Source: Octopus vulgaris
Lineage: Eukaryota
Length of the DNA stretch: 64,000 nt
Reading direction: 5' to 3'
Assembly: GCA_951406725.2 (NCBI GenBank)
Contig: OX597827.1
Coordinates: 38,006,001 to 38,070,000 of the forward strand
In this document: positions 1-29,312 of the stretch, one piece after another
Numbering within the stretch: position 1 is the stretch's first letter
How the letters are laid out: every line of letters starts with the position of its first letter
The notes under the pieces: generated by a model
Seen by the model: the letters and a program-made list of their open reading frames with translations, nothing else
Database searches by the model: none
Told to the model about the DNA's origin: nothing
Made by a program: the position numbers and the translations under genes

Positions 1-230
1 GAGATCCACAATTATGAAAGATGTGCCCCTTTGATAAGATCACATGCACTGATAAGAACTGTAGTTTATACTTTTAACTCCACTATTAACTGTAAGACCA
101 GGAATGTGGTCTGCAGCATAAAACGCATGGAGATGGTGTACAAGATACATTTGGAGAGAGGAAATGGACACTGGTGGAAGTATGACAGGAGACAGCCATC
201 TATACTCTATCAATATGGTGGCATGGTTGA
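1..230 (+). mobile_element. Possible degenerate Penelope-like GIY-YIG endonuclease fragment
   Basis: Translation INCKTRNVVCSIK, then after a frameshift Y-I-G-E-R-K-W-T-L, resembles the Penelope GIY-YIG pattern CxxxNVVYxIxC...YIGETxRxL. Heavily decayed. Confidence 0.35.
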
Positions 231-614
231 CTGAATTAACATTGATATTTTGTCTAAACATCCAAGAGACCCTTTGATTAGACAAATACATTAGAATATC
301 CTCATAAACAAAACATTACCAATACTGAATAGAAAATACAGATAATAGGTTGTAGAAATTCAACGTTACTATTACCACTCATGTAATATGCATACATGGG
401 TGTGTCCATGTGGGTGGATTGGTAGGCATGTGTATGATGATATAGGCAGGTATAAAAAAGGTTGGGGTAGAATAACAGTAGAATGCAAGTAAACCCATAC
501 AAATAGATACATGTAAGTATGCACAATTGCACATGTATAGGCATGGGTAAGTATAGATAATGTAGGAAATATGACAGAAGGCTATCAGGGAATGCATACA
601 AATAAATACATATA

Positions 615-998
615 GGCGTAGGAGTGGCTGTGTGGTAAGTAGCTTGCCTACGAACCACATGGTTCCGGCTTCGGTCCCACTGCGTGGCACCTTAGGCAAG
701 TGTCTCCTGCTATAGCCTCAGGCTGACCAAAGCCTTGTGAGTGGATTTGGTAGATGGAAACTGAAAGAAGCCTGTCGTATATATGTATATATATATGTCT
801 GTGTTTGTCCCCCCAACATCGCTTGATAACTGATGCTGGTGTGTTTATGTCCCCATAACTTAGCGGTTCGGCAAATGAGAATGATAGAATAAGTACTAGT
901 CTTACAAAGAATAAGTTCTGGGGGTCGATTTGCTCGACTAAAGGTGATGCTCCAGCATGGCCGCAGTCAAATGACTGAAACAAAAGAGTAAAGAGTAT
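615..998 (+). mobile_element. tRNA-derived CORE-type SINE (Octopus OR-like)
   Basis: tRNA-like head GGCGTAGGAGTGGCTGTGTGGTAAG...GGTTCCGGCTTCGGTCCC, CORE-like CACCTTAGGCAAGTG, and a simple-repeat tail. Homologous copies at 16748, 19105 and 37915. Confidence 0.8.
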
Positions 999-1311
999 AT
1001 AGGTGTGAACAATGCCTATACACAACCATACACATGCACACATAAACACACAGAGGAACACAACCACACACATACATGCAAGCATACACACAGATTCTTG
1101 CTTATTTAAAAGAACTGCCAGATATGCACACACACATGCTGGAATACACTCAGATAATACACACATACACACATACATACTCACTGAACTGACTAAACCA
1201 CACAAATATGCATGCTAGACCACACACTTGTGCACGATCAGATGCTCACACGTACATCATCCCTGTTCTCCCCTCCCCCTCCCTACATAAAGAGCTACAC
1301 TTCTTCACTAA

Positions 1312-1446
1312 TGGGATCCAAACACTGCAATGTTGATGGAAGAAGTGTGTGGACCACAAGAAGGACTATGTTGAAAAATAAATCCCATTTGATCACATTC
1401 CATGAGAGTTTTTTGGTTAGCCAAAGAACTTTTCAACTGGTCCTTG
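1312..1446 (+). mobile_element. mariner transposon 3' remnant
   Basis: Degenerate GIQTLQ..WKKCVD..GDYVEK* transposase C-terminus followed by a TIR-like tail. Confidence 0.6.
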
Positions 1447-1629
1447 GGATCAGTGTTACTGCAGTAAAATAGATTTATTTTGACCAAACATGCAATATTA
1501 GTTATATCACTCTAGGTACTGAGTTCAAATCACACTGGAAATGTCTTGGCTTTTTGTTTTTATAGAATCGGTAAAATAAACGGAAGACATATATTGAAGT
1601 TTATTGAAGCCAGTGTCCTCCCTCAAAAT

Positions 1630-1850
1630 AGGTGGTATTGTGCTAGCAAGCTGGCAGAATCGTTATTGTGGCAGACAAAATGCTTAGCTGTGTTTTTTCC
1701 AGTTTTATGTTTTGAGTTCAAATGTTGCTATAGTTGATAGTGCTTTCATCTAAATCATTAAATGACTACCAGTTGAGGATTGGAGTTGATGTAATTGACT
1801 AGCCCCCTCTCCTAAAAATATTTCAGGCCTAGTACCGTTAGTAGAAAGAA
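1630..1850 (+). mobile_element. Nin/Deu-domain tRNA SINE, decayed
   Basis: AGCTGGCAGAATCGTT...TGAGTTCAAAT...GCTTTCATC; homologous to the better-preserved copy at 15742. Confidence 0.55.
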
Positions 1851-2284
1851 TCATTATGACTCTCTAATTCCATATAATTAAGTGGCTTCTCAAGTAGGCC
1901 TCTTAAAATGTCAGATTACTAATCCAACTTGTTTGATTTTCCAACAATCATCAAGTGTTCTTGGTTTGCTAAACTAGAACCTGATTGATTATGCCAGTGG
2001 TGCTTATCTCCCTAAAATAAAAGAAATGGTAACACTGACTATCACTGATTTACTTCCTGTCTTAAACATATCTTCTCTGATGTTGATGCACCAATGGAAG
2101 CACTCCGAACAAAATTATGTAAGGGAAATAATCAATATAGCTATCTTTTACAGTCATTGGATTGTGACCATGCTGGGGTACCACCTTCAAGAATTTAGTG
2201 GATCAAATTGACCCCAATTCTTATTTTTAAGTCTGTTACTTATTCTATCTATCTCTTACTGTAATAATGTACTGCCGAAGATCT

Positions 2285-2527
2285 TCAATACTTGGCTTCC
2301 TCTGATTTACAAACTTGGTTTCCTTGACTTACAAACTGTTCAAAAAATTGAGACTTGCGATCAGGATCATCCTTCAGAAGTCCATGAATTAGGCGCGGAA
2401 TGTAAAGTTTCATATTGAGTTTTGTAAATATTTTATGTAATGATGTTTGTTTGATACCAATTTCTGAACTACCACTGTGAATTGATTTCTTTGGGCTTCT
2501 TACATATACCTCAGCAACTGTAGTCAT
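2285..2527 (-). mobile_element. Tc1/mariner-superfamily transposase N-terminal (HTH) fragment
   Basis: SPKKSIHSGSSEIGIKQTSLHKIFTKLNMKLYIPRLIHGLLKDDPDRKSQFFE matches the SPxxSxRxxSxxxGIxxxxVxxIL...DDxxxRxxFC pattern. Confidence 0.6.
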
Positions 2528-2567
2528 ATTTTCTTCAGCCTAACTATATACTAACTTTATGGATGCC

Positions 2568-2603
<36 letters not shown>

Positions 2604-2820
2604 TAGTGATAAAACCACTATTAGGCAACTCAAGCAGTGATAGACATAAACTAATACATAAATAACAAAGAAATATAAATATAATTAATATAATATATAT
2701 ATATAAAATATAAGATTTTAATTTTTATATTTTTTTTAATAACCAAAAAGTATAAAAAAAGATAAATATAATATGAGTAACTTTTCCCTGCAAGTTTGGA
2801 TATAATCCCTAATATTGTTA

Positions 2821-2861
<41 letters not shown>

Positions 2862-2977
2862 TTGAGTACAGAAATTCGGGGTGAGTACTTGATAAATGTA
2901 AGCACCTGTATATACCGTTAGGTGGTGTAGGTGGTGGAGTAAAATGATCAAAATAAAAACATGATGCCAAGGATTCA

Positions 2978-3055
2978 GCGGTACATATGTTTCGGGCCTT
3001 TATTAGACAGATTTATAACAATGCATAATGTATGTCTGTGGCCTTCTTCAGCCGC
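2978..3055 (-). ncRNA. Minimal type I hammerhead ribozyme motif (minus-strand copy)
   Basis: Reverse complement of 3279-3356, in the left arm of the palindrome. Confidence 0.7.
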
Positions 3056-3278
3056 GCACAACAACTTCTTCCACAAGGACATGTGTTACATCAAAAATTC
3101 TTGGTTGGGGATGCAAATCCTCTCATTCGCGTACGACATAATGCGGCAACAGCATAGAAGTGAAGCGTCCATCTCGTTATGCTGTTGCCGCATTATGTCG
3201 TACGCGAATGAGAGGATTTGCATCCCCAACCAAGAATTTTTGATGTAACACATGTCCTTGTGGAAGAAGTTGTTGTGC

Positions 3279-3356
3279 GCGGCTGAAGAAGGCCACAGAC
3301 ATACATTATGCATTGTTATAAATCTGTCTAATAAAGGCCCGAAACATATGTACCGC
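3279..3356 (+). ncRNA. Minimal type I hammerhead ribozyme motif
   Basis: Stem I GCGG(3279-82)/CCGC(3353-56); core CTGAAGA (3283-89); stem II GGCC...GGCC with an inner ACAGA/TCTGT helix; GAAA (3341-44); minimal stem III C-ATAT-G with a palindromic loop; GUA cleavage triplet (3350-52). Confidence 0.7.
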
Positions 3357-4226
3357 TGAATCCTTGGCATCATGTTTTTATTTTGATCATTTTATATATA
3401 TATATATATATATAATATTGTTGACATCATAAGAATTTATAAAGTTTCTAGATAACATGGAATAACTCTTTTTAGGAATTGGTTCTTGAAGTACACCTAA
3501 AACTATAAGTAATATCATATAAATATTGGGTTGAAAAACCCTTTTTTGATAGGAAAAATCAAAGGCTGCCCCTATGAATCAAACCCACATCTCCTGTAGA
3601 CATGACAAGCATTCTACTGTTGTATGAAAACAATCCTTCGAATTTCTTTATCCATTTTAGAAACTGTATTCTCACCAGTGTCAATTGTATGCTTGTGTGG
3701 GTTGGATGGGTTAGCCAACTCTGAGTCAGTTCTTATTTATGTCCTCTTAGACAAATCAGAATACCATGTCTCTCACTTGTATATTACATTTTTGGCTTGT
3801 TTTCTACAGTTGCAGACATTGCAGTAATGATTTCCATCATTTGGGAGTAGATTAGACCCAGCTATACCCTGTTTTTTTTTTTTTTCCTTCCGGAAGCCTT
3901 CTTATCTCCCTCAATACTGCACACCCTCAATTTAGGGGTCTTGTCTTGTGAGTTACCTAGAAACTTCACTGTCAGTGCTGCATGAAAGCACCCTGTACAA
4001 CACTGTAAAGTGGCTGGTATTAGAAAGGGTATCAAGCTGTAAAAATCATGCTAAAGCAGACATTTGAGTTTGGCATAGTCTTCTGGCATATCTACTTCTG
4101 TCAAACTGTCCAACCCCTGCCAGCATGGGATATGGATGTTAAATGATGATGGAGAGAAAAATTTCATTTCAAATCACAAGTGTTAAACACATTGCCAAAT
4201 TTCTTTTAGTAATATGTTTGATTATT

Positions 4227-4259
<33 letters not shown>

Positions 4260-4276
4260 ATGTATGTGTGTGTGTA

Positions 4277-5336
4277 ATGTAAAGCAGATTGTATGATGCT
4301 TGTGTATGAACGGTTGTACTTCATTGTAGTGGGACAGGGACTCTAAATGCAGAAGACATGCATAAACTCGAGAGTAATGAAGCTAGTATGTTGTAATGCA
4401 CATGTAACATAAATGTGCATGTACAATAAAGTGTAATAAAGATAAAGAAGTGTCAATCATTTAAAGTTGATGGCAAATATGGAAGAAGACATGGGATGAA
4501 GTAGTGAGGACTGATTACAAGATGTTAGGCTTCACAGACTGAGATGTCTGGTTTTATGAGGTTCTTGAGAAGACCCACCCACCTCAGCAAAACTGAATTC
4601 TAGAAGTACTGTGTTACACCCATATGTAACATTAAAAAGCTTTTCACACACCTTACCCTAATAAACGAAACTACATCTCCCCTTCGCCTCTTCCTCACTC
4701 CTGCAGCCCAGTTCTGTCCTCACTGCCCCACCCACTGTATCATTGTGATCCTGTTTCCCTCCACCCAACCACTCTGTATAACCAAGGTTTCACTAGATGC
4801 TGCATTCCACCCTCCCCGCTTTGCATTCTCATGAACTCTCTACTCATGCACCCTTAGCAATGCTCTACCATCGAATTTGTATTCTCATCTCTATACCTTA
4901 AGAGTATCTCCTGGCATATCACCACCATCTCTCTCACTCTCGTTCTCTTCCACTCTTGCTTTCCCTCATTCTCAATTACTCTCTCTATCTCTCTCTCTCC
5001 AACAATGGTAACCATATATCTCTTCTACAGCAAGACACCTGCTTCTGACCCTCTTTTATACTCTAATCCCTCATCACCAGGCACAAAGGGACATCCTTCA
5101 ATACCATCCCACCTCTCAGAGGACTTTTGTCTTGCAAGTTACTTGGTAACCTCACTGGTGTTGGTGCCACATAAAAAGCATTCAGTCCACATTGTAAAGT
5201 GGTTGGCATTAGGAAGAGCATCCTGCTGTAAAAGCCATATGCAAAGTAGACCTTACCAGTGCTGGTGCCATGTGAAAAGCATTCAGTTCACATTATAAAG
5301 TGATTGGCATTAGGAAAGGCATCCAGCTGTAAAAAC
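4277..5336 (+). mobile_element. Decayed RTE LINE 3' end (ORF tail plus 3'UTR), interrupted by the Gypsy insertion and resuming at 10374-10485
   Basis: GTAAAGCAGATTGTATGATGCTTGTGTA... aligns with the RTE at 42120 onward. The tail GGAAAGGCATCCAGCTGTAAAAAC|CATGCCAAAACAGAC is split by the LTR element. Confidence 0.7.
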
Positions 5337-5750
5337 TGTAGTGATGCTACTGTGTAGGGTTCACCGCGCATGCGCAGAATGGGACTACTTCCGGGTGGCC
5401 ACCGGAAGTCTTCCCCATGCACATGTGCGGGAAACGATCCCTAAGGCCCGCTAAACTCGATTCATTCTCTCTGGCCGTCAGCCCTCGTGAACAGACGTGC
5501 ATTCGTAGACTCTGATAATTACACCGACTTAGCCGCGGACGACATCGATCCACTTCAACCAACGAACAAGAAGCTGTACAACAGATTCGGCTGTCGTTTT
5601 CCCATCAGATATACGTACACCATCGCAATTAATAAACAAACTGCTGTCTTTCACCGATAACCTGACTTCGTCTGTTATATCTTACTAAATTGTATGTGAC
5701 GGGATCGGATCGACACCCTTTCAGTGATACCGATACCAGATCCTGTTACA
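5337..5750 (+). repeat. 5' LTR of Gypsy copy A
   Basis: TGTAGTG...GTTACA; about 9 mismatches to the 3' LTR by eye. Confidence 0.95.
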
Positions 5751-5752
5751 AT

Positions 5753-5762
5753 TGGTGACCCC
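5753..5762 (+). promoter_or_regulatory. Primer-binding site complementary to the tRNA-Trp 3' end
   Basis: TGGTGACCCC two nt after the LTR. Copy B has TGGTGACCCCGA. Eukaryotic tRNA-Trp ends ...UCGGGGUCACCA. Confidence 0.75.
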
Positions 5763-6134
5763 AAGTAGAAAAAAAAAAGAACAGAAGACGCAGCGAACAG
5801 GTTTTACCAGATAGAGCACTGAACACTGTTTCATTTTTCATTTTTCTTTTCCCTTCAGGACGGCGAGGTGGGTACAAACAAAAGCTTCATTCATCGCACT
5901 CAGTACACTGAAAAAAAAAAAAAGAAAACACACACATTATTTTTTTTCTTTTCTGTACCTTTGTTTTCCTTTGTGCACACACACACTTATTTTTTACTAC
6001 CCACGAGGTGCACTCACACACACACCAGTACACAAAACACCATTTTGATTTGCTTTGTCGGTTCCACGTGTTCTCTCTCCATTTCTCCTTCATACCTTCT
6101 GCCCCTCCTGACAGACTATCCTTCCGACAAAAAC

Positions 6135-6622
6135 ATGGCTGCATCAGGTTTGCCTTCATTCACGGGGGATGTGGGTCTGTGGTTTGCCCGGGTGGAGTGG
6201 TATTTTGACGCACATGCCATTTCTCCACAACAGCAGTTACATCTGCTATACTCCAGTTTACATCCCCGACTCGCCGCATCGGTCAGGGATCTCATAATAA
6301 GTCCCCACCCGGACGCCACATACGCGTCCGTGAAAGCAGAAATCCTCCGCCGCAACACGCGGTCGGAGGAGAGTAATTTTAAGGAGCTGATGGCCGATAG
6401 AATACTGGAAGTTCCGAATCCATCTCCATCGCGAGGCCTGTGCGCATGTATAGAGCCCCCCCTCCAGCACAAATTTCACTAGCCGAGCGGCTCGATGCGC
6501 TCACGCGGCGAATCGATGATCTATGCCGTGCAATCGGGCGCCGACCACGCAGTCGTAGTCGCTCTGCCGAAAGGGCAGAACGGTGTACCCAGCCGTGCAC
6601 TTCTCGGCCCTCGGAAAACTAA
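6135..6622 (+). pseudogene. Gypsy gag, internally deleted
   Basis: MAASGLPSFTGDVGLWFARVE...; aligns to gag of copy B (51327) with deletions. Confidence 0.85.
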
Positions 6623-9600
6623 ATCTGGAGAAGGTGAGCACGTCACCTTCTTCCATCTCTTTTCCCCAAAATCGTGCGTTCTTTGTAAAAGATCTGGTGT
6701 CGAAGAAATTCTTCATGGTGGACACCGGCTCTTGTTGCAGCATCTGACCCCTTCGTCTGGCTGCAGACAAGCCCAAGCGCTCTTCAATTGTCTTGCATGC
6801 CATTGACTCATCTCCCATAACAACCTTCGGTCAGATTTCGCTGCCCCTCGACATCAACCTTCGTCGAGATTTTCAATGGGTTTTCGTCATCGCTGACATC
6901 CCGCATCCTATTCTCGGCGCTGATTTCTTGGATAGGTTTAATCTATTGGTGGATGTCAGGCGTCGGAGGCTTCTTAACAGCACGACGTCGCTCTCGACGC
7001 CGACTGGGAGTTCCACCAATGCGGTCCTTAGCCCGACATTCTTTGTTGCCACCTCTGGAGACGCTTTTCACTCTCTTTTTGCTTCATTTCCGGAGCTATT
7101 GGATATTGCCTTTCAACCGGAAAAGCCTACCCACTCGACCCTTCATTTTATCACCACCACTGGGCCGCCTGCATTTTCGCGCCCACGGCGCCTTGCGCCT
7201 GACCGTCTAAAGACGGCTAGGGCCGAGTTTGAGCACATGCTTCAACTTGGCCTTATACGCCCCTCCACCAGCCCATGGGCGTCTCCCCTTCATTTGGCGC
7301 GAAAGGGCGAGTCTGATTTTCGCCCGGTTGGAGACTATCGACGCCTCAATGCCGTAACAATAGCCGACAGATATCCAATCAGAATTATACAGGACTTCAC
7401 GGCAAATCTCCATGGTTGTACCATTTTTTCGAAGGTCGACCTTATACGCGCGTACCATCAAATACCGGTCAACCCAGCCGACGTTCCGAAAACTACGATC
7501 ACTACCCCCTTTGGGTGTTTTGAGTTTTTGTATATGAGTTTCGGTTTGCGGAATGCAACTAGCACTTTCCAGCGTTTCATTGATGAGGTTGTCCGCGGTC
7601 TTGATTTTGTGTTTGCCTATGTCGATGATATACTCATTGCGAGCGACACACGTGAAAATCATCTCCAGCACCTTTCTCAGCTTTTTCAGCGTCTTCGCGC
7701 TTATAGTATACGTATAAATCCCGACAAGTGTGTTTTCGGACGCTCTTCTCTAGATTTTCTAGGCCATCATATTGATTCGAGTGGAATCAGCCCTCTGTCG
7801 TCAAAGGTCGATGCCATTCAACGCATCGCACCCTCACTTCCTTGCGCCAGCTCAGGCATTATCTAGGGATGATCAATTTCTACAAGCGTTTTATTCCCGG
7901 TTGTGCAGACAAGCTACTACCTCTCACGAGGCTATTAAAGGACACTCCAAGAAAGGACGGTCAAGTCACCCTCTCTGTTGAGGCAGTGACAGCCTTTGAG
8001 TCCATTAAGAAGGAGCTGGCTTCTGTTTCTTTGCTTGCACATCCGGTTCCTGGTGCTTCTCTCTCTTTGACTGTAGACGCATCGGACACTGCGATTGGCG
8101 CTGTGTTACAACACACAGTGGATGATCATATTCGACCTCTGGCTTTCATTTCCCGTCAACTGCAACCAGCTGAACGACGATACAGCACCTTTGATCGTAA
8201 GCTCCTAGCGATCTATCTATCGGTTCGTCATTTCCAGCATCAACTTGAAGGGCGAGATTTTGTGATCTATACGGATCACAAGCCCCTTACGTTTGCCCTG
8301 TGTTCAAAAACGGACAAACTCTCACCTCGTGCCTTCCGGCACCTGGATTTTATCTCTTAATTCACTAGTAACATTCGACACATACCTGGAAAAGAGAACG
8401 TTCCTGCTGACGCTCTCTCTCGCCTTCTAGTCTGCGCCCTTTCGTCTCCTGCTGCTATCGACTTAAGTGCCATCTCAGAGGAGCAGCCACCTTTGGCGTC
8501 GTTAGACTTAACTTCGCCCAGGTTCTCCTGTTGCCAGTTTTCCCACCCTCCGCTTCCGTCAGCCGAAGGCACCATTCTCGGTGATACTTCCACTGGTTCT
8601 CCCAGGCCACTCGTGCCTGAGAATCATCAACGCTCAGTGTTTGAAGCACTGCACTCCTTATCACATCCTGGCATCGCTGCCACCCTTAAACTAATCACTG
8701 CTCGGTTTTTCTGGCCGAATATGCGTCGCACTATTACTTCTTGGACACGCACCTGCTCCAAGTGTCAACGGTCCAAGATTCAACGGCACGTTCGTGCCCC
8801 GCTTGGACATTTTCCCCACGGAGGCCCGTTTTCGCCATGTCCACATCGATCTGGTTGGAACATGGCCTGTGAGTCGCGGGTTTTCTTATCTGTTAACTTG
8901 TGTCGATCGTTTCTCCCGCTGGCCAGAAGCCATTCCGATAGCAGACATTTCTGCTGAGACTGTTGCGCGAGCTTTCGTTTGAAACTGGATTTCCCGTTTC
9001 GGAGTTCCATCCAGATTGACTACAGATTGTGGACGTCAGTTTGAAGCTTCGCTATTTCGCGAATTGTCGCGCATTTTAGGTGTGCATCATATCCACACTA
9101 CTAGCTACCATCCAGCGTCTAATGGATTAGTTGAGCGGTTCCATAGACAGCTCAAGGCCGCTCTTCGTGCCTCTTCAGATCCACAGTCCTGGATTGAATT
9201 TCTGCCAATTGTGCTTCTCGGTTGTCGCACTGCTGTCAAGGCAGACCTGGGGTTTTCTGCTGCGGAGCTGCTGTATGGCACCACACTGGCATTGCCTGGT
9301 ACGATGTTGGTGCCAGACACTTCCCAGCCCCATGATCCGGCGACCTATGTCACCAGACTGCGTGCATATTTTTCGAACCTTCCACCCATGGTTCCCAGGA
9401 AGCAATCTCCACCATCCCATCTCTCACCGGATATGGACACTTGGTCGCATGTTTTTGTTCGGGACGACTCTGTGAAGGGGCCACTTGTTTCTCCCTATAA
9501 AGGAACTTTCCGTGTGCTTTCTCGCACACCAAAGGTTTTCACTATCGAGATAAATGGTCATTCGGAGACCGTTTCCGTGGACCGATTAAAAAAAGCACAT

Positions 9601-9825
9601 TTTGAGACGTCTTCATCTTTTGATGACAACCTTGCCACACCCACCTATGCACCTTTAACAACACCTTCACCTGCACAAACACCTTCACCTGCACAGACAC
9701 CTTTGCCTTCACCGGCTCCTACACCACCCTCGCCGTCAACGGGTGCCCCGAGCACACCGTATGTTACAAGATCGGGCAGCACAGTGCATTGGCCCAAGAA
9801 ACTTTCAAAGACAATCTATATTTAA
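6620..9825 (+). pseudogene. Gypsy pol (protease, RT, RNase H, integrase), frameshifted
   Basis: FMVDTGS protease, FAYVDD RT, TVDASD RNase H, HHCC motif and HIDLV..TTD..ERFH integrase spread over ORFs 6793, 7842, 8493, 8794 and 9016. Confidence 0.95.
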
Positions 9826-9959
9826 CTTTCTTTCAAATTTCTTGTTTTTGTATGATATTATGTAGCAAGTTTTCTGGGGGATCGGCAAGCCATCTGTTTT
9901 TCTGCAGCACCACCACAAATTTTCTTGTTGTCGTACTTCCGCACTCGAGGGGGGAGCCT

Positions 9960-10373
9960 TGTAGTGATGCTACTGTGTAGGGTTCAGTGCGCATGCGCAG
10001 AATGGGACTACTTCCGGGTGGCCACCGGAAGTCTTCCCCATGCGCATGTGCGGGAAATGATCCCTAAGGTCCGCTAAACTCGATTCATTCTCTCTGGCCG
10101 TCAGCCCTCGTGAACAGACGTGCATTCGTAGACACTAATAATTACACCGACTTAGCCGCGGACGACATCGAACCACTTCAACCAACGAACAAGAAGCTGT
10201 ACAACAGATTCGGCTGTCGTTTTCCCATCAGATATACGTACACCATCGCAATTAATAAACAAACTGCTGTCTTTCACCGATAACCTGACTTCGTCTGTTA
10301 TATCTTACTAAATTGTATGTGACAGGATCGGATCGACACCCTTTCAGTGATACCGATACCAGATCCTGTTACA
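9960..10373 (+). repeat. 3' LTR of Gypsy copy A
   Basis: Direct repeat of 5337-5750, preceded by the PPT. Confidence 0.95.
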
Positions 10374-11495: not shown

Positions 11496-11501
11496 AACAA
11501 C

Positions 11502-11502
11502 G

Positions 11503-11586
<84 letters not shown>
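11502..11586. repeat. (AAT)n microsatellite
   Basis: Direct reading of the sequence. Confidence 0.95.
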
Positions 11587-11587
<1 letters not shown>

Positions 11588-11689
11588 CACTATTAATAAT
11601 AATAAAGACAGTAATACTAGTATTATAAATAATGGCAATAACAATAATATGAATAATGATAATGTTCATTAACCACTAAGGGTTCACAA

Positions 11690-18784: not shown

Positions 18785-18885
18785 GACTGAATGTCAAGAA
18801 CAGATAAAAGGTTTCTATGGCCCCAAGTTTAAGAAGTTCAGTACAGAAGAGGAAGCTCTGGCTTTTGCAGAAATTCCGGCATCAG
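18785..18885 (+). CDS. RNASEH1: RNase H1-like exon: C-terminal half of the hybrid-binding domain
   Basis: tttcag|G TECQEQIKGFYGPKFKKFSTEEEALAFAEIPAS G|gtgaat; compare human [28 protein letters not shown]. Confidence 0.92.
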
Positions 18886-21800
18886 GTGAATAGAATTTTA
18901 GTGCTGTTTGGTATAATCAGTAGAGTGTTGAATGAATATCTTGTGGTATTTAGCTCAGTTTTTTATGTTCTGAGTTCAAATCCTAGTTAGGTCAATTAAC
19001 TTTCATCCTTCTGGGGCTCAATAATGGTCCAGTACTGAGATTGATATAGTCAGCTGTTCTCTCATTGTGACTTTGTGTCTGTATCAAAAAATAATTATTG
19101 TGCAGGTTTGGTTGTGTTGTGAAGAAGCTTGCTTTGCAATCATATGATTTCAGGTTCAGTCCTACAATGCTTGCATTTTGGGCAAGTGTCTTATACTATA
19201 GTCCAGGCTGACCAATACCTTGTGAGTGAATTTGGTAAACAGAACATGGACGATGCCAGCACCGCCTTGACTGGCTTCCATGTCGGTGGCACATAAAAAG
19301 CACCAATCTGATCGTGGCCGTTGCCAGCCTTGCCTGGCATCTGTGCCGGTGGCACGTAAAAAGTACCCAATACACTCATGGAGTGGTTGGCGTTAGGAAG
19401 GGCATCCAGCTGTAGAAACACTGCCAGATCAGACTGGAGCCTGGTGCAGCCTTCTGGCTTCCCAGATCCCCGGTCGAACCGTCCAACCCATGCTAGCATG
19501 GAGAACGGATGTTAAACGATGATGATGATGATGGAACTGAAGCCCATCACACAATGTGTGTCTGTCTTGTGTTTGTGTGCCCACCCACCATTGCTTGACA
19601 ACCAGAGTTAGTTTGTTTATGTGCCCATAACTTTGTAGTTTGACAAAAGAAACTGATGTAGTAAGAACCAGACTTTTAAAAGATTAGTACTGGCTCACTT
19701 TGTTCAACTAAATCGTTCAAGGCAGTGCATGGCTGCAATCCAAAAGCTGAAACAAATAAAGATGAAAGATTGCTGTCGTAGTAGGATTAGTAGTGTCAGA
19801 CAAAATGCTGTGCAGGTTTTGTTCCATCTCTTTCTATTGTGAGTTTAAATCCCACTATGATAAACTTTGTCTTTTATTTGTTGAGGGCCAATAAAAACAA
19901 AGTTCCAGTTAAGTACTATATTGGGCCACCATTAGTCAAGGTTAACCACATATCTGCTCTCGTGTGTATGTTTGGACAAGATTTTTGAAGAAGACTAGCA
20001 GATACCTATTCCAGTCATCCCATCATTTGATGCTCTTGTTATTGCCAACCCTTAAGCAAGGTAATATTTTCCCTCATAGCCAGACATGTTTTTCACAGGA
20101 GATTGGAGATAAATAGCATTGTTTTAATGATGGAGATGTTCATTTACAATCATCACATCACACACACAAGGAACTTCTTTTAGTTTCCATCTTACAAATT
20201 CACACTCATAAAGATTTCATTGGCTCAGGACTATAACAGAAGATATTTGGTCTAGGTACCACCCAGTGTCACTGAACCTGAAACCATGTGGATGACTAAC
20301 AAATTCTTAAATACACACACACACTCTCTCTCTCTCTCAGTAGATATATATTTAATAGTAATTTTCCCATTTTTGCTCTCCCAAGTAATTAGTGTTTTTT
20401 TTGTTAATATTATGTAACTAATTTGCTATTTTATTTATATATTAACAGACAAAACTCTCTCCAGTGTAGCAAAATCTATTCAACCGATTGTGAAAAAACT
20501 CATGTCCGGAGTGAAAGAAGTCTCTCCTCTCTGTCAGACACTGGTGTCAATGCTGACTGATTTGGATGACTCAGAAGAAAGCAAAGAATTTTCAATATTA
20601 GCATATAATGTTGAAAATTATTTAGATAAGTTGACAACAAGTGTTAAACTGGCAATTGATTCTAAGCTTTTGACAGGAACTACTAAGGGGAAGGCTTCTG
20701 ATTCATCTGAAGACGCATCAGAATCTCCTGAAAAGAAAAAGAGTGTTGAAGAAGGAGGTTTTACTGGTAATGTATCATGTTTTCATTCTCCTTTAAGAGA
20801 TTGTTAATATTTTATTATTATTTTTTTAAAATGAAAACTTGCAGCTTATTTTGCTTGGTATGATAAAAAGTGTCAGCTTCTCCTAGCCAGCAGGCTAAAG
20901 TGACACTTGTTAACTGATCATGGTTCAAGAACCCTGTGGAGAACTCTTGCAGTTCCAAGCAATGCTGATTTTTACAGGTGTTCTATTTTTACATTTGTAC
21001 CAATCTTCTTGAGCTGTATTGGTATTTGATAATTGCTGATTCTTCCACCTGCACCAATCACTATTTGTATCATGTCCACTCTCTCCATTGCCCATAACCT
21101 GTGTATTTCCCACTTCAATTCATCATAGTTGTTCACTTTTTCTTTTTCTTTCTCTTCGATCCTGTTATCACCAGACATGCTTGTCAATTATCAGGCATAT
21201 TTTATTTTATTTTCTGTTCACCACAACAATGTTAGGTTTCCATTGTCTAATCTGATGATCACACTGAATCATTGTATTTCACAGGGTTTTGCAATCTTCA
21301 TTCGCAGTAATTCCCTCTGAAATTTGGTCATACCATGTCTGATCTTTCTAGGCCATAATTTCCACAAATCTCCAATGGATCATTCTTGCCTCATTGTCTT
21401 GTCGTCTTTGTATTTACAGTGTGCTGATTTTGGTTATTCACTAACAATGCACACTGTTTCACTCCTCTCACCATTCATTTGGCATTTGTCACTCTTAGTT
21501 GTGTTATCAATTTTGCACTTTAAATAGTTTGTCCTCAATGCTTGTTCTTGTGCTGTGCATATAAGTGCTTCTGTGTCTGTCTTGGAGCTCATATCTCTTG
21601 CAAACTGATTGTACTTTTTTTGTGTTCTTTTCTTCTTTAGATTTCTCTTTCTTAACACAATTATCAATTTTGATGATTTTGGACTTCTTCACATGTATCA
21701 GCAATGGTTCGGTGGCATTTTTTACATATCATCCTAAGCTGCTTTTCTCTGCTTCAACACAATCCCAACAACTGATCAATTCCCCCCACCCTTTCTTCTA

Positions 21801-24282
21801 TAAGTATCACTCTTGGAATAAATTGTTCCATGATCTGTCAATAGCTTCCATGACTTCATATTCATACTCATCAGTGTCAATAGTTTCTGTGTCTTTGAAT
21901 CCATACTCATCATCATCATCATTATTATTGCAATCCCTACCAAGATCTACTTTGCCATTCACCTCTCCATGGTTAATAAAATAATGTACTTGTCAGTTAC
22001 AAGGATTGATTTAATTGACTGATCTCTTCCTGCAAACTTCAGGTTTTGTGCCTATATTAGAAACAATTATTATTATTGGGGATTGGTAGAATCAGTAGAG
22101 CATCAAGAAAATTTCTCACAAGTGTTTGCTCTGGCTCTTTATGTCCTGAGTTCAAATTCTGCCAATGCAAACTTTGTCTTTCATCCTTTCAGAGTTGACC
22201 TTGAACTCACCAATCAAGTAAGTTTAAGGTCAATGGTTTTGACTAACCTGCTCCCCTCAAAAATGTTGGCCTTGTACCAAAATTAAAATCATTGGTATAG
22301 TCTCTCACCAACACTTCTCAGCCTCTGGGTCACAAACATGCTATTCCCTCACTCTGCCTTTTCTACCACTGATGCTGTGGTTTCTGCTCTTTGGAGCTGG
22401 CTGGTCTCAAGCTAACTTCTCTCATCTCTATCTTACTCTCCTCTGCCATATTCTGTCTAACTACTATGCCCAAGCCTACTTCACCAGGACATCAGTCTTT
22501 TGAAATCTACTTGCTACTCTTCTTTTCCTGAAGTTGTATATAAACATAAACCACATTGATCTCATTGGTTTTGGAAGATTTGTCAGCTATTGGTAGAGCC
22601 CTTCCTCACAGTAAAATTGATAAAAAAGAAACAGCTTAACAATTACATTCACTCATTTGTCTCACCCTAAATATTCTCCCTAGAGATTACACTCTCCATA
22701 ATTTCTAGCCAGTTCATAGATGATTTATATAAAGAGCCAGGCAACAATATATTTTATATAATTTCTATAAAGAGCCAAGCTGCAATATATTTTTATATAT
22801 AATTTATGCAAATTTTTTATTTACAGGGAAAAAATTGGCTGATGATGATAAAGATGTTTTCATTGCTGGCAGCTGTTTCAACAATGGTAAACCTAATGCC
22901 TCAGCTGGACTTGGTGTCTACTGGGGAGAAAGAGAAAAGTAAGTTTTTTGTTGTTGTTTTGTTTCTTGTTAGCGCTTGACTAATAGTCACATAACAACAT
23001 GGGATGGATGGGGATAGAGCTAGAAATATAGAATGTGGTCCCCCATTTCTATTTATTCTTTGGGAACAGAAGGATTATTGTGCCTTTATAGATTTGAATT
23101 GTTTCAATATATCGCTTAGTAATGTTTCTATAAGCCATAACCTATCTGTCTTTTGTATATTTAGGACTACTTTATATAGTTTATCTTTTATGTAAAACAG
23201 TAAGGCTGTGATATGATGGGAAGAAACTTAGCAGATTTTCCTAGGAGATTGAGTGGGCAGAAACAGCAAGGATGAGGGGGAATAATTTCTTTGGCATCAA
23301 GGAGGAATTGCAAGTGAAAAAGCATCTGTTGGGGTACATCTGTGTTGAGGAAAATAAGGAGTCTCCGATTTTACAAATTTATAGTTATGCTGGTTTCAAA
23401 TTTCACCCTCATGTAATGTGTGGTCCATCCATCACATATAGATTCCTTTGTTTGCTCAGTTGAAGATTTTGTCAGTGTCAAGAACAACATTGCCTGGACT
23501 GAGTTGCAGTATGGTGGTCATATTAAGATAATGGCACCTAATTTACTCCTTTAATTCATGTATATCTTTGTCATAATAAATATCCCTCACCCCTCATACT
23601 CTCCATCACAAATTAACTGGTAAGTCTTCACTTTATGTATTAAAGTTTGTTAAAATGTTGGTTTGTATATTGATAGGTGTTTCAGGGTGTGAACATTGTA
23701 TATACTCTTTTTGTGTATGAATGTGTGTATATAGTGTGTGTAAATGTGTATATTTGTATGTCTGTAAATGTGTATCAATCGTATCATTTTTGTGAAACCT
23801 GTCTTCCAGTTCGCTTCACTCACCCCTCTCTGCATGTATATTTGTATAAACACAGATTGGGGGGGGGGGGGGCTAGTAGTTAGTGTTGAACTTGTGAATG
23901 TGAGATCATTTCCTGGACTGGGCTGCTTGTTGTGTTCTTGAGTAAAACATTTTGTCTCACGTTGCTCTGCAATCACTTTGACATCTGATGTATGACACAT
24001 CATCCATCTGTACAAACAGTGTTAATTTGATGGAGGGAGTGACCTAATGTGCAGTACAAACTTTTGATCTCTATAAGCATCATCTGTGCAGGTGTTTCAT
24101 TGAGAGTCCATGTATGTACAGACACACATATATTTCTCAGCACTATTTTTAACACAAAAATATGAATCGCTATTCTGTTCACATATCTCTTTCTTTCCCC
24201 CTCTCTCTCTCTGTTTGTCTTTCCCCCTCTCTCTCTCTGTTTGTCTTTCTCTGTATAATGACATGTGTATACACATTCACAC

Positions 24283-24330
<48 letters not shown>

Positions 24331-27300
24331 GTATGAATATGACACAATATTATCTATCTGTCTGTATACATATGTATGTTTATACAGAAACTCATTTATC
24401 AACAAAATCATTAAAGATATTTAGTCAATTGGAGATATGACTATAGAAAGCATGAAATGTTTTATTTTCGAAAGCATTAGCTTTATTTAACTAAATGTTT
24501 CTAACAATCACATAGAGAAATTTGTGTTTATCTGTGTACATACATTCACACATACTGAGAGACAGCTAGATAATGAATACAGTTATATTCATAAGAATGG
24601 GTATGTGTGTAGTGTATCATTGTATAGGGAATGAAAGACTTGACAGACTGAAAGAATGGAGATTCTTATTTTTTTACTTTGAATGTGCACGATGGTGTAT
24701 AGTGTGTGTGTGTGTGTATGATGATATATGTCGGATTGTGTGTATGTCTGTAGGTGAGTATATATGATGGTGTATGTTGCTTTGTGTATGTATATGATTG
24801 TATTTGAAGATGTATATTGGTTCATTGCTTCATATGATAAAAAGCAGTGTAATTTTTATTAGTCAGCAGAATTACTAAGTCTAGCATGCTCTGTTTTTAC
24901 AGGAACACAAGTGAAAGACTTGGTGGCCGACAAACAAACATTCAGGCTGAAATAAATGTAAGCCATTCTATTTAAGTTTTCAAGTGAAAGTAATGAGAGA
25001 ATTATTTGTTGGGAAGCTCCGCATTAATTGACACCTTGTGTGTGGTTTTGGGTGACTTCATCTGAAGGCACAAAAACTCTTCCCCTTCTTGCTATTGTAA
25101 CTTCAACCTTTATATTTAAGCATCTAGAGATGTTTTTGTTTTTGTTTAGTCTTTATCTAAAATGAAATTATTTTGTTTGCAGGCTGCCATTAGAGCTGTT
25201 GAACAAGCAAAGGCCAAAAATATTTCAAACCTTACTATCAACACTAGTAGTGAGTTCATAATGAACAGTAAGTTATGTTTGTTTCTCCTATGAATCAACT
25301 AATCCTTAACCTATTTAGTGTTTGTGGATGTTATTCCCTAACTTCTTTCATTTGGAACCCAAGTATTTTACTTCTATCAGTGAATGTCCAGAGGATCTCT
25401 TAGTGTTGTGTGTGACTGCATCCTATTGCAAAATTACTATATGTTAAGGTTGAAGAAGAAAATTGAGCGTGTTATTCACCTTTAGCAGCAGGGCTTTTTA
25501 CAAGTAGTCTTCCAGGAACAAATTGGCAGGACTTACTACAGATGTTTATGTGTTTGTTGGTCAGCTTCATTGTAGCAAATAGCAGCTGGAGCTACACTTA
25601 TCTTTGCTCTTCACAGAATATTTGTACAAGTAAATCTGTTACAGGTAATATTTATGTGGAATACTTTTGTTTTTATTTTTCAGTTTGTTTATCAACTTCT
25701 CATTCATCATAATATTGTTATTTCTGTTTGTATAGCTGTGCTTGGGAAGACTCATTGAACCAAGTGACACCATAGTCACGACCATTGCCAGTGTCATGTG
25801 AATGGCACCTGTGAAATCGTAGTCATGGCTGTTACTGGTGTCATGTAAAAGGTGCCCATGCCAGTGGCACATAAAAAAGCACCCATTACACTTTCGGAGT
25901 GGTTGGTATTAGAAAGGGCATCCACCTGTAAAAACCATGCCAAATCAGACTGGAATCTGGTGCAGCTTTCCAGCATGCTACTTCCAGTCAAACCATCTAA
26001 CCCATGCCAGCATGGTAAACAGACATTAAATGATGATGATAATGATGATAGCCACACCCACATCTCTCATGTCACAGGCATTATTTTATTAACCATACAT
26101 ATCTTGGAACTATTGGGTCATCCCATAAATAATGTGGTTTTTTTGTACTTCTTTTATTTTTCAAAATTAAGATAAACAAAATTATTTTCTAGTCTAAAAT
26201 ATACTCTCCTTCATTTTCTACAATGCTCTTCCATATATCTGGTAGACCTTCCCCTCTTCCAAAATTCACTTGTCTGTGATGAAAAATACTCCTCCAGTAC
26301 AGTTCTGACCTCATCTGCAGAATTCCTATTTTTTAGCCCAAATAATTTTGAAGACTGTGTGTTACTGTCTTTTTGTGTTGACATGGTGTAATAGTTGTAA
26401 ACAAATGTCATTGCCATGCAAGCAGTGTCCTTTGTTTCTAATCTTCTATGGTCTTGAGGAAATATTACTTTACTTAGAAACAAAGTAAGGGTTGACAATA
26501 GGAAATGCATCTGGCTGTAGAAAATCTGCCTTAACAATTTCAGTCTGATCCATGCAAGTATGGAAAAATGGATGTTAAATTATGATGATGATGGTTTCTC
26601 TGGTGTTTGCTGTCATTATTGACTTCCATGATAATTACTTTGTGTATTTGTGCATCTTAATCATGAGAAAAGTGGGTCCTTAATCTGAGCATCAACACTT
26701 CAGAGCTTGCAATAAATTTAAATTAAAAGGAACCAAGAGATTAACACAAATACTTGCAACAGAATAAGTTAGAGGCCATTAGTGACCAGAGGGTAGTGTT
26801 ACGCTGGGTGGGATTTTAAATGTAACACCAACGAGTTAGGCCTAAGACAATAATGTTAAATCTGTTCCTTCTCTCCCTCACACCAGGTATGACTAAATGG
26901 TTGAAGACTTGGAAAAAGAATAACTGGACGAAATCAGATGGAAAGGAACTGATAAACAAAGAAGATCTGCAGAAATTGGATAAGAAATTGGAGGGAATCA
27001 ATGTTAAATGGGTAAGTTTAAGCAGGACGAACTGGGAAGCTAAAAGAAAACTCTATCATGACATCTAAACCAACTGAAGGATTTTATTCTGTGTGTGTGT
27101 GAGAGAGAGAGAGAAAACATGTTTGATTGTGTGCTTTGTTTTTTTTTTTCCATTGTGGTCTAATTAGAAGAGGTTAAGATTACTTATCAAGGTTTGCAAA
27201 GATTTTGGTAAGAGATTAGAAAATCTGACTGTAATTTTGGAGGAGAAAAATTTTTCAGTCTGTGTGCTTTTCACCTTTCCTACTGATCATCTTGATGATA

Positions 27301-29312
27301 TAGTAGAAGTTGATGATGGTATGAGGGGTTTCTTCCATATGTTGCAGACTGTTAGGTTTGGTTGTGTGAGCAGTGTGGAAGGACATATCTAGGAGAATGG
27401 TTTCAGTCTCACATTTAACTGTCTGACATATGCATACTTGCTTTTCTCCTCCCTCATTCAAATTTTATTCTTTTCTGTGCCAGCTATTTCTCATCTATTT
27501 CCAGTTCATCTGTTGTTCAGACTACATTCTATATTCCACCTTCACACACTGAAAAGTATTATTTGGTTGATAACCAGATGAGAAGAGGAGAGAGTGGAAG
27601 CAAAAAGACTTCCAGTTACTGTGGCTCTAAGTCTCCCTGCTAAGTTTCTTTATAACCACTACTTTTCTTCAAACCTCTCCAACATCAACAGTAGTTCAAC
27701 TACCAATTATTTTACACTGATGACATCTTGCCTCACCTTTCTTTGTACTTATTCTCATCACATTTCTTTCCTCTCTCACTCCTCCTACACCAATGCAGCT
27801 ACTGTTGAGGATGAGCAGTTTTCCATCCCTAAATTTTGCACTAATTTCTGTTGTCACCTGCCCAAATCCATAAAATTAAATATTAAAAAATTATTGATCT
27901 ATTTCTCACCTCAAAGCTTTTACTTCATTATCAGAGAAAAGGGAGGAGAGAGCATCTAAGTAGTAACAACTTGCTAGAAAAAGCTAAATTTCTCTTAAAT
28001 CACACCCTGCTGTCTTGGAATAGGACATACTTCAGAAAAGATGCATGGCCTTGGCTAGAATACCTTTGGTCATAAGTCTGTTCAATTAGGGTTAAAACAA
28101 CAACATTTTTAGAGTTGCACCTCACAGAATGCTCCAACTTACAGCTAATCAAAGCACAACAACCCTTGCCAGTTCTCTGGTACCTCAACTCACTGGTTGA
28201 CACTCTACCAGTTCTACACTGATGACCCTTCACAACACATGTTTCACCTCTGCCACACACATCCTTAACTCTCTTAAGTTTGTTTCAACTACTGAATGAA
28301 CTAGCACAAAGAATTACAAGGTTCCAGATGAACTAGTCTCATTGACAGATTGTCAAAGAACTCTAGAAGAATTAAATGTCATTTTAATCTCTGATTAAAA
28401 ATTTTAGTAGATGCCTAGAAAATTTTTCATGTCTAAAAATGTTAGTAATAACTTTCTATTATTCAAAGAAACAAGAAACTTTTCTTTAATAACCAATTAA
28501 AATAGTCATAAACAGTTGTTATTATATATTGCCTAGCACTTAGAAGAAAAGGGTTTTAAAGAAAATAGTGTATTTGAATGGTTGTTTTTAATTTAAAAAA
28601 ACACTATTTTATGAATGAATCAATGCTTAAAATTTTAGACATGAATTTGAAACAGAAAAGGCAAGATACCTACTTAACTCTTTTGAGAGAAATATTAGTA
28701 TAATTTGTAACTTGATTAACCAAGGAATGGTCAGTACTTAATAACAAACCAGTGGGACTGGTTTATTGTAATTAGAATTATTATTAAAAGAAAGAAAAGT
28801 GTTGGCCTTGTGCGAAAATTAGAAAGAATTATCAATATTAAGGTTCATAGAAATGAATTGTGTTCATGGCCCATGTAGGCCCTCTAAGAGTGGTTAAGTT
28901 GGCTGCTTCAAGTTGATTGCTACAGAAAGAACTAGGGCAGGAAGGGAATTCCAATGGGATGTTATTCAGGGAAGGGAGGGAGTTGGAAATGATTATTGTA
29001 GGCCTGGGAATACAATATGCATGTTTCAAATTGGTACTAATAATGTTTAGAGATTTTTAAAATTATTATTTTATTTAATTTTATAGTTTAATGAGAGTTT
29101 CTCTAATTTCTATTCTCAGTCTCCGCATAGGAGAATAAAAATAGATAGGCTGTGGATAGCCTCCTCCTCTTTACATCAACAAATAAATATAAAAATTATT
29201 TTGATTGTATATTATTTCTATTTCCTAGGTCCATGTGGATAAACATTGTGCTGGATGCAAAGCTGCTGACAATTTGGCCAATAAAGGAGCAAAACTTCCT
29301 CTACCTGAGTAG
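18785..29312 (+). CDS. RNASEH1: RNase H1-like gene, coding exons 2-8; predicted catalytically impaired
   Basis: Seven GT-AG exons with consistent phases: 18785-18885, 20449-20766, 22827-22938, 24903-24957, 25183-25267, 26887-27011, 29229-29312. They encode a hybrid-binding domain, a linker and an RNase H domain. Exon 1 was not found upstream within the window. Confidence 0.93.
19105..19770 (+). mobile_element. CORE SINE with a nested RTE-tail SINE (about 19245-19532)
   Basis: CORE SINE 5' half, an inserted (GAT)n-tailed repeat, then the CORE SINE 3' half. Confidence 0.7.
20449..20766 (+). CDS. RNASEH1: RNase H1-like exon: long connecting region
   Basis: ttaacag|AC...ACT G|gtaatg. Phase 1-1, 318 nt, open (DKTLSSVAKSIQPIVKKLMSG...EEGGFTG); joins the flanking exons in frame. 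Confidence 0.8.
20890..21830 (-). mobile_element. R4/Dong-like (restriction-like endonuclease) non-LTR retrotransposon 3' fragment
   Basis: TEALICTAQEQALRTNY...DKC...ETV..IVSE zinc-knuckle region and GDNRIEEKEKEKVNNYDELKWEIHRLW endonuclease region. Confidence 0.75.
22827..22938 (+). CDS. RNASEH1: RNase H1-like exon: first catalytic strand with Asp->Ala
   Basis: KKLADDDKDVFIAGSCFNNGKPNASAGLGVYWGERE; compare human [29 protein letters not shown]. Confidence 0.92.
24903..24957 (+). CDS. RNASEH1: RNase H1-like exon (catalytic Glu retained)
   Basis: NTSERLGGRQTNIQAEIN; compare human NVGIRLPGRQTNQRAEIH. Confidence 0.92.
25183..25267 (+). CDS. RNASEH1: RNase H1-like exon with TDS->TSS
   Basis: AAIRAVEQAKAKNISNLTINTSSEFIMN; compare human [28 protein letters not shown]. 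Confidence 0.92.
25735..26050 (+). mobile_element. RTE-tail SINE or truncated RTE
   Basis: GTGGCACATAAAAAAGCACCC...GGGCATCCACCTGTA...(GAT)n. Confidence 0.7.
26190..26345 (-). mobile_element. mariner transposase C-terminal remnant
   Basis: DEVRTVLEEYFSSQTSEFWKRG...IVENEGEYILD*. Confidence 0.6.
26887..27011 (+). CDS. RNASEH1: RNase H1-like exon (basic protrusion)
   Basis: MTKWLKTWKKNNWTKSDGKELINKEDLQKLDKKLEGINVKW|gtaagt; compare human [27 protein letters not shown]. Confidence 0.95.
29229..29312 (+). CDS. RNASEH1: RNase H1-like terminal coding exon
   Basis: cctag|VHVDKHCAGCKAADNLANKGAKLPLPE*; compare human [30 protein letters not shown] signals follow near 29347, 29474 and 29573. Confidence 0.92.
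   Translation, partial: VHVDKHCAGCKAADNLANKGAKLPLPE

What the first reader, a model, noticed from the sequence alone, without database searches (positions are those of the whole stretch)
2940..3394. 455-bp palindrome carrying two opposite-strand hammerhead ribozymes
Seen: 217-bp arms that look identical by eye, a 21-nt spacer, and in each arm a complete minimal type I hammerhead layout (GCGG-CUGAAGA-stem II-GAAA-C-AUAU-G-UA-CCGC). Known: Penelope-like elements carry minimal hammerheads with a palindromic stem-III loop in their pseudo-LTRs, are proposed to cleave as dimers, and often form inverted pLTR structures. Inference: this is a young non-autonomous Penelope/retrozyme-like unit. Transcription from either strand gives one sense ribozyme that is trapped in a 217-bp dsRNA hairpin, a possible ADAR or Dicer substrate and a self-masking switch. 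It probably lies in intron 1 of the RNase H1-like gene. Stem II is unusually long, and its first pair is an A-C mismatch.
Basis: partly seen in the sequence, partly recalled or inferred. Interest (0 to 1): 0.75.

Follow-up and report, generated by a model that had tools for sequence, protein, structure and literature searches.

The report
Palindromic Penelope retroelement stub in octopus
The palindrome and its two mirror-image hammerhead ribozyme motifs are really in the sequence, but they are most likely an ordinary footprint of a Penelope-like jumping gene, two truncated end pieces joined head to head in a TA repeat, and not a purpose-built RNA switch.

Summary
Confirmed: arms 2940-3156 and 3178-3394 are 100% complementary over 217 nt. 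Each carries a minimal type I hammerhead that fits the published Penelope-like element (PLE) consensus. The 'A-C mismatch' is best read as that consensus's unpaired base before G10.1-C11.1. In contigs of 4 public runs the arm is a very high-copy repeat. 19 of the 21 'spacer' bases are family sequence of the left copy, and three other joints look like head-to-head junctions with different break points. The insert has an 80-nt extension on one copy only and sits between (TA)16 and (TA)11. This is the described PLE insertion anatomy: inverted pLTR, one-sided tail, microsatellite target. Opposite-strand hammerhead pairs 100-700 bp apart were reported in 2014 (PMC4209133). It is not a tandem retrozyme. 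On read-through from outside, the ribozyme is predicted to be fully buried and has no dimer partner in cis, so a switch is unsupported. Not shown: the parent RT-endonuclease ORF, cleavage, expression, editing, and a read across this locus's own junction. Host: probably the first coding intron of an Octopus RNase H1-like gene. New member of a known kind; interest 0.2.

The parts
2828..2859 (.). (TA)16 microsatellite; left half of the inferred target site
   Evidence: Sequence
2860..2939 (-). 80-nt 3' extension of the left copy only; candidate PLE 'tail', starting with an A/C-rich stretch
   Evidence: Abuts the arm and the (TA)n; GC 0.44 against 0.17 in the left flank; 20 of the first 24 bases A or C. 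Family membership not tested; role inferred from PMC3846280 and PMC11167929
2940..3175 (-). Left, 5'-truncated copy of the element end (2940-3156 is the palindrome arm)
   Evidence: 5' end near 3175 from loose ends in 4 of 4 runs
2978..3055 (-). Minimal type I hammerhead motif, mirror copy
   Evidence: Descriptor match on the - strand
3157..3175 (-). Unpaired 5' part of the left copy (19 of the 21 'spacer' bases); forms the hairpin loop
   Evidence: Contigs of other copies follow this sequence to 3175 (3178 in X1) and then go on with one shared sequence; bin depth is high (tables 2 and 7)
3176..3177 (.). Head-to-head junction, 1-2 bases that fit neither copy exactly
   Evidence: Window sequence against loose-end consensus; no listed contig spans it
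3178..3394 (+). Right, 5'-truncated copy, without the extension
3279..3356 (+). Minimal type I hammerhead motif; predicted cut after A3352; long imperfect stem II holding an AATAAA
   Evidence: fits the consensus in the supplement of PMC4209133
3393..3414 (.). (TA)11 microsatellite; right half of the inferred target site
   Evidence: Sequence
18785..29309 (+). Downstream coding exons of the probable host gene, RNase H1-like; the insert lies upstream, probably in the preceding intron
   Evidence: Pfam PF01693 and PF00075; residues 19-310 of P0009, named RNase H1-like isoform X1 of Octopus vulgaris, map here in 7 pieces (86-100% per piece, piece edges included); residues 1-18 not found in 1-18785

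Best explanation
This is a single, probably recent insertion made by an endonuclease-bearing Penelope-like retroelement. The element's protein cut a (TA)n run and copied the end of its RNA twice, once into each side of the break. One copy began at the far start site, so it carries the 80-nt tail and is 316 nt long. The other began 80 nt further in, at the A/C-rich stretch, and is 217 nt long. Both stopped early and were joined at their 5' ends. A fold-back of the first copy onto itself would give the same shape. The hammerhead is the ordinary pLTR passenger, built to work as a dimer or with protein help in the parent's RNA. At this locus any transcript entering from outside makes the antisense arm first and carries only one sense ribozyme, so the ribozyme is zipped into a 217-bp duplex and is most likely silent. 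The hairpin is a by-product, though a likely ADAR substrate if the intron is transcribed. Shown: anatomy, high copy number, consensus fit, predicted masking. Inferred: PLE parentage, tail identity, priming mechanism, intronic position, age.
For: (1) The motif fits the metazoan PLE min-HHR consensus: CUGANGAH, G...C, GAAAN, palindrome, NUH, U-rich before and AU-rich after. (2) In 4 of 4 runs, summed contig depth over 3189-3372 is 2.7e4-1.2e6, against 9.5-146 at 3764-3800 and 7-44 on long single contigs (the tool warns that this is no copy number). (3) Loose ends behind 3175/3178 in 4 of 4 runs show other copies running on past the centre. (4) Three joints, 3175>3244 (X1), 3175>3363 and 3178>3233 (X5), at depth 20-49, have the family's own next letters between the sides, as expected of head-to-head junctions at other loci (table 5c). 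(5) Inverted 5'-truncated pLTR, one-sided tail, head-to-head arrangement and (TA)n targets are described for PLEs (PMC3846280; PMC8557442). (6) Dual opposite-strand min-HHRs 100-700 bp apart are described (PMC4209133). (7) A purified PLE protein cuts and extends both target strands and starts at two internal sites, in an AC-rich stem-loop, that define the tail (PMC11167929). (8) Predicted probability of hammerhead stems I and II is 0.000 in read-through and nascent transcripts; arm-arm pairing is 0.97-1.0. (9) Recently active Penelope families are reported in O. vulgaris (PMC13282606).
Against: No RT or GIY-YIG sequence was linked to the repeat, so parentage rests on the ribozyme and the anatomy. 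The extension is 80 nt, against 30-40 nt in the papers, and was outside the stretch laid on contigs. None of the 32 listed contig pieces (4,939 more not shown) spans this locus's junction. The three other junctions are single contigs, and their 'kind' rows were among the hidden ones. Nearest-neighbour energies prefer the A.C-mismatch register of stem II over the G10.1-C11.1 register by 2.2-3.4 kcal/mol. Stem I barely forms in a single arm with its natural flanks (probability 0.003 or less in 4 of 4 such folds), so the ribozyme may be poorly folded even unmasked. No target-site duplication can be resolved inside the (TA)n.
Confidence: 0.85

Rival explanations
1. Assembly or polishing artefact: a fold-back chimera, or two less similar arms homogenised into a perfect palindrome.
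For: Arms are 100% identical. Both carry the same alleles at 3267, 3268 and 3270, where 38-72% of family depth reads another base. No listed contig spans the junction.
Against: The two outer ends differ (extension on one side only) and lead into different flanks. The centre is asymmetric family sequence. Similar junctions with other break points stand in public contigs at depth 20-49. Shared alleles are also expected if both arms were copied from one template.
Confidence: 0.06
2. A foldback or MITE-type DNA transposon whose 217-bp arms are terminal inverted repeats, with TA target duplication, that happens to carry a hammerhead.
For: The palindrome starts and ends with TA, and the repeat is abundant.
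Against: Other copies run on one way past the centre and join at different points. Depth is uneven along the arm and lowest near the centre. The motif fits the PLE consensus.
Confidence: 0.04
3. A self-standing retrozyme-like unit or regulated switch, in which unwinding (for example by ADAR) releases an active ribozyme that cuts the host pre-mRNA.
For: Intact core on both strands; none of the 7 listed substitutions in the arm falls in the core, stem I, stem III or the first 5 bases of stem II (14 rows hidden). Octopus is heavily hyper-edited (PMC5625713).
Against: No tandem copy in the window. One sense ribozyme per strand, so no dimer in cis. A monomeric min-HHR showed no cleavage and dimers only weak cleavage (PMC4209133). 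Editing would also hit the core adenosines (inference). With 7 variable sites in 217, none in about 37 core and stem positions is expected by chance about 3 times in 10 (my arithmetic), and contigs under 85% alike were filtered out.
Confidence: 0.05

Closest known systems
5'-truncated insertions of endonuclease-positive Penelope-like elements with inverted pLTR and tail (PMC3846280; PMC8557442)
   Same: Head-to-head inverted end modules of about 200 bp, extension on one end only, (TA)n target with no resolvable duplication, many dispersed copies.
   Different: No ORF at all between the inverted copies; extension 80 nt, not 30-40 nt; clade not determined (Naiads lack canonical hammerheads, so Neptune, Hydra, Nematis or Penelope/Poseidon remain).
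Minimal type I hammerheads of metazoan PLEs (PMC4209133)
   Same: CUGANGAH core, 4-bp stem I, G...C closing of stem II possible, palindromic stem III loop, pairs on opposite strands 100-700 bp apart.
   Different: Stem II encloses 51 nt with only 4 proximal and 4-5 distal pairs, longer and looser than the aligned examples I saw; G10.1-C11.1 needs a bulged C; no octopus entry in the supplement file searched.
Non-LTR retrozymes (10.64898/2026.07.22.740005)
   Same: Non-coding, type I hammerhead, PLE-derived.
   Different: Retrozymes are head-to-tail tandem repeats; this is an inverted pair that cannot form a cis dimer or a unit-length circle.
Palindromic Harbinger repeat of Xenopus tropicalis as a hyper-editing source (PMC5625713)
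   Same: A repeat that forms dsRNA by itself, in a heavily edited genome.
   Different: That is a DNA-transposon repeat with editing shown; here the hairpin comes from retro-insertion and editing was not tested.

Membership tests
Penelope-like element insertion | PLE reverse transcriptase with GIY-YIG endonuclease in the parent element | tested here: inconclusive
   No such ORF in the insert. Three short frames have no Pfam hit. One frame found no longer relative; another gave 5 hits, of which the 4 inspected are repetitive and carry no RT or GIY-YIG domain. Genome not held.
Penelope-like element insertion | End repeat carrying a minimal type I hammerhead of the PLE consensus | tested here: met
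Penelope-like element insertion | Inverted, 5'-truncated copy joined head to head | tested here: met
   Ribozyme-sense strands point outward; centre is family sequence; three further such joints
Penelope-like element insertion | 3' tail on one end only | tested here: inconclusive
   80-nt one-sided extension present, longer than described; not tested against other copies
Penelope-like element insertion | AT-rich or (TA)n target; duplication often unresolvable | tested here: met
   (TA)16 and (TA)11 on the two sides
Penelope-like element insertion | Dispersed multi-copy family | tested here: met
   Depth thousands-fold over flank in 4 of 4 runs; 673-1,903 contigs laid per run, flank repeats included
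Minimal type I hammerhead ribozyme | Conserved core, three-way junction, NUH triplet, palindromic stem III | tested here: met
   the isolated 78-mer folds into stems I and II at about 0.76-0.79 probability; no Rfam hammerhead hit
Minimal type I hammerhead ribozyme | Self-cleavage at the predicted site | not testable with these tools
   Needs an in vitro assay or raw RNA reads
Non-LTR retrozyme | Head-to-tail tandem units, each with a hammerhead | tested here: not met
   No other copy in the 64-kb window. One contig (X5, joint 3273 back to 3234) shows only a short internal duplication.
MITE / foldback DNA transposon | Fixed unit with constant inverted ends and centre across copies | tested here: not met
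   Copies continue past the centre and join at different points; few contigs, so not exhaustive

The most novel reading that the evidence does not exclude
This very abundant octopus repeat routinely lands as perfect head-to-head palindromes. It would then be a genome-wide generator of long intronic RNA hairpins and a sizeable source of the octopus's extreme A-to-I hyper-editing or of small RNAs. Its many junctions, with the longer copy's 5' end perhaps clustering about 105-125 nt upstream of the ribozyme, would be a natural data set for deciding between two-sided priming and fold-back in Penelope transposition.
Probability: 0.2. Interest if true: 0.55.

Novelty: new member of a known kind. Interest (0 to 1): 0.2.

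Why it matters
As one locus it matters little: it is a tidy example of a described insertion type, in a family I did not find described. It would matter more at family level. The function of PLE hammerheads and the origin of inverted pLTRs are open questions in the papers read, and a family with thousands of copies and variable junctions can test the priming models. In a genome with exceptional editing, such palindromes could be a measurable ADAR load.

Tried and rejected
Rfam on 1-8000: no hammerhead; 4 matches below gathering score. Own-genome search: no genome held. Pattern scans: 0 hits in metagenome contigs, viral contigs and prokaryote genomes. Parent ORF: two of three short frames searched, nothing relevant; the third (P0003) went only to Pfam. 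Motif search in the supplement of PMC8557442: 0 hits for both 14-mers. Lunse et al. (PMC5785218) is not held; I know it only through PMC6765202. Expression: no RNA holder listed, which is no evidence either way; no RNA run was laid. Earlier scan notes: nothing by sequence or in this genome. First RNase H1 coding exon: none of 44 candidate donors in 1-18780 looks like it, and tblastn finds it only as diverged copies downstream. A shared 10-mer on both flanks (2810-2819, 3413-3422) was rejected as a target-site duplication because its order relative to the TA runs does not fit. Covariation in stems could not be tested: only pooled variant rows were returned. One listed change in distal stem II (3296 C>T) keeps pairing; another (3325 T>C) breaks a pair in one register.

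Full report
OBSERVATION. The inverted repeat is exact: 2940-3156 and 3178-3394, 217 nt, 100% complementary, with 21 nt between the arms. The + strand of the right arm holds a minimal type I hammerhead layout at 3279-3356: a 4-bp stem I, CUGAAGA, one extra A, stem II, GAAA, an 8-nt palindrome at stem III and a GUA triplet, with the predicted cut after A3352. The mirror copy is at 2978-3055 on the - strand. My relaxed descriptor matched once per strand in the 64-kb window, both times in the arms, and in 4 of 20,000 shuffled arms (descriptor written after the fact). Rfam reports no hammerhead here. The isolated 78-mer folds into stems I and II but is no more stable than shuffles (z +0.62 for the 83-mer).

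THE RIBOZYME IS OF THE PENELOPE TYPE. The consensus in the supplement of PMC4209133 reads CUGANGAH, G...C, GAAAN, palindrome, NU, H, with U-rich sequence before and AU-rich sequence after. The motif fits at each position. That paper lists an unpaired base between positions 9 and 10.1 and a G10.1-C11.1 pair as recurring features. A3290 is therefore best read as that base, with G3291-C3340 closing stem II and C3338 bulged. Stem II is long and loose (51 nt enclosed). Activity is untested.

FAMILY EVIDENCE. No genome was held, so I laid contigs of 4 public runs (3 studies, 3 organism labels; 4 of the 24 runs listed) on 3120-3800. Summed depth over 3189-3372 is 2.7e4-1.2e6, against 9.5-146 at 3764-3800 and 7-44 on long single contigs. 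The tool warns that this is no copy number, but a thousands-fold excess marks a very abundant repeat. In all four runs, contigs follow the 'spacer' to 3175 (3178 in X1) and then continue with one shared sequence. So 3157-3175 belongs to the left copy, and the true junction is 1-2 bases at 3176-3177. Three joints (3175>3244 in X1; 3175>3363 and 3178>3233 in X5; depth 20-49) have the family's next letters between their sides, which is what head-to-head junctions at other loci would give. Each is one contig, and their 'kind' rows were among the 12 hidden. In these three and in this locus the antisense copy ends within about 6 nt of one place, a weak hint of a preferred 5' end; the choice of stretch biases this. 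Listed variants in the arm are 7 substitutions (3267, 3268, 3270, 3271, 3296, 3302, 3325) and a 3-nt deletion (3263). None falls in the core, but 14 rows were hidden and this is not significant. None of the 32 listed pieces (4,939 not shown) spans this locus's junction, and rows at 3384-3423 were dropped by the tool, so the palindrome is not independently confirmed at this locus.

ANATOMY. Left to right: (TA)16 at 2828-2859; an 80-nt extension at 2860-2939 (GC 0.44 against 0.17 in the left flank); the left copy on the - strand to 3175; the junction; the right copy on the + strand, 3178-3394; (TA)11 at 3393-3414. The copies point outward, so they are joined head to head. The two 3' ends lie 42 and about 122 nt past the predicted cut, and the shorter one stops where an A/C-rich stretch begins (20 of 24 bases). 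That the extension is part of the element is inferred, not tested.

MECHANISM. PMC3846280 describes inverted pLTRs, a tail on one of them and head-to-head arrangement, and proposes self-priming. PMC8557442 describes an inverted 5'-truncated copy at the 5' end, a 30-40-bp tail and (TA)n targets without discernible duplication. PMC11167929 shows a purified PLE protein cutting and extending both strands of AT-rich DNA, starting at two internal sites in an AC-rich stem-loop that bound the tail, with hammerhead cleavage needing the protein and not required for insertion. Priming from both sides of a cut, once at each start site, gives this structure; fold-back of the first cDNA does too. The bases at the turn offer little pairing for a fold-back here, which slightly favours two-sided priming (inference). 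Zero differences in 217 bp suggest an age under roughly 2-4 million years at the rate quoted in PMC13282606 (my arithmetic), unless the arms were homogenised by conversion or polishing. The parent ORF was not found, so the clade is open.

WHAT IT DOES HERE. The exon pieces at 18785-29309 match P0009, named RNase H1-like isoform X1 of Octopus vulgaris. Its first 18 residues are not encoded in 1-18785. If that exon lies upstream of the window, the insert is in the first coding intron and the + strand is transcribed; this is inferred. Either strand, read from outside, makes the antisense arm first. Predicted probabilities of the ribozyme stems are 0.000 wherever they can be scored, in the read-through transcript and in the nascent prefixes that reach them; arm-arm pairs are 0.97-1.0. 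Only one sense ribozyme is on a strand, so the dimer that these motifs are thought to need (PMC6765202; monomer inactive and dimers weak in PMC4209133) cannot form in cis. The simplest reading is a silent ribozyme in a by-product hairpin. Editing is plausible in a genus with very high hyper-editing (PMC5625713), but I have no RNA data.

COMPARISON AND NOVELTY. PMC4209133 already reports dual min-HHRs about 100-700 bp apart on opposite strands, and a 5'-truncated PLE with a second ribozyme on the opposite strand at its 5' end. It works like, and by anatomy belongs with, truncated PLE insertions; the ORF criterion is inconclusive. It fails the tandem criterion of non-LTR retrozymes (definition). 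I found no description of this octopus family; most subscription papers and repeat libraries were not searchable. An earlier agent note on a shark-like genome (e1-7858806) reached a similar reading; it is an unchecked AI note and not support.

PAPERS SEEN. PMC4209133: main text parts 1-2 of 4, supplement file 2 part 1 of 3 and search passages; file 1 could not be searched and may bear on octopus coverage. PMC11167929: parts 1-2 of 4. 10.64898/2026.07.22.740005: part 1 of 5. PMC3846280, PMC8557442 (plus a supplement search), PMC6765202, PMC13282606 (supplement listed, not read) and PMC5625713: passages. Lunse et al.: not held; cited second-hand. Hammerhead numbering and the labels of other repeats in the window are partly from my own knowledge.

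VERDICT. Real in this assembly and well explained: a palindromic stub of a Penelope-like element (confidence 0.85). New member of a known kind; interest 0.2.

Noticed in passing
window:18785-29309 (+): The RNase H1-like gene looks catalytically degenerate: it reads IAGSC, TSSE and GCKAAD where the O. bimaculoides protein P0012 has YTDGC, KTDS and GNEAAD. The same species has an isoform or paralogue (P0011) with TDGC, so this may be a dead or repurposed duplicate.
   Followed up: partly
window:58327-58467, 60772-60912, 62712-62852 (+): Three copies of an RNase H1 first-exon-like sequence (87% to P0011 residues 2-48, altered at the FYAV motif) inside a 1.9-2.4-kb tandem duplication of about 94-97% identity, downstream of the gene.
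   Followed up: partly
window:5337-10370 and about 50200-57800: Ty3/gypsy-type LTR retrotransposon with 97% identical LTRs and frameshifted gag-pol, plus further copies later in the window; family label from my own reading of the ORFs.
   Followed up: no
window:39395-42556 (+); 13175-13618 (-): A LINE with endonuclease and RT frames (RTE-like) and a Tc1-like transposase remnant; labels recalled, not tested.
   Followed up: no
window:2984-2906 (-), element sense strand: Speculative: a GT at the ribozyme's cleavage triplet and a branch-point-like motif with an AG in the extension could bound a 79-nt intron whose removal would recreate an ATG and destroy the ribozyme. The donor is weak and nothing tests this.
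   Followed up: no
window:3329-3334 (+) and mirror: An AATAAA lies inside stem II of the ribozyme, 18 nt before the predicted cut.
   Followed up: no
window:3419-3740: The right flank is itself a moderately repeated sequence (depth up to about 14,000; many joints and loose ends), so the insertion landed in a TA run next to another repeat.
   Followed up: no
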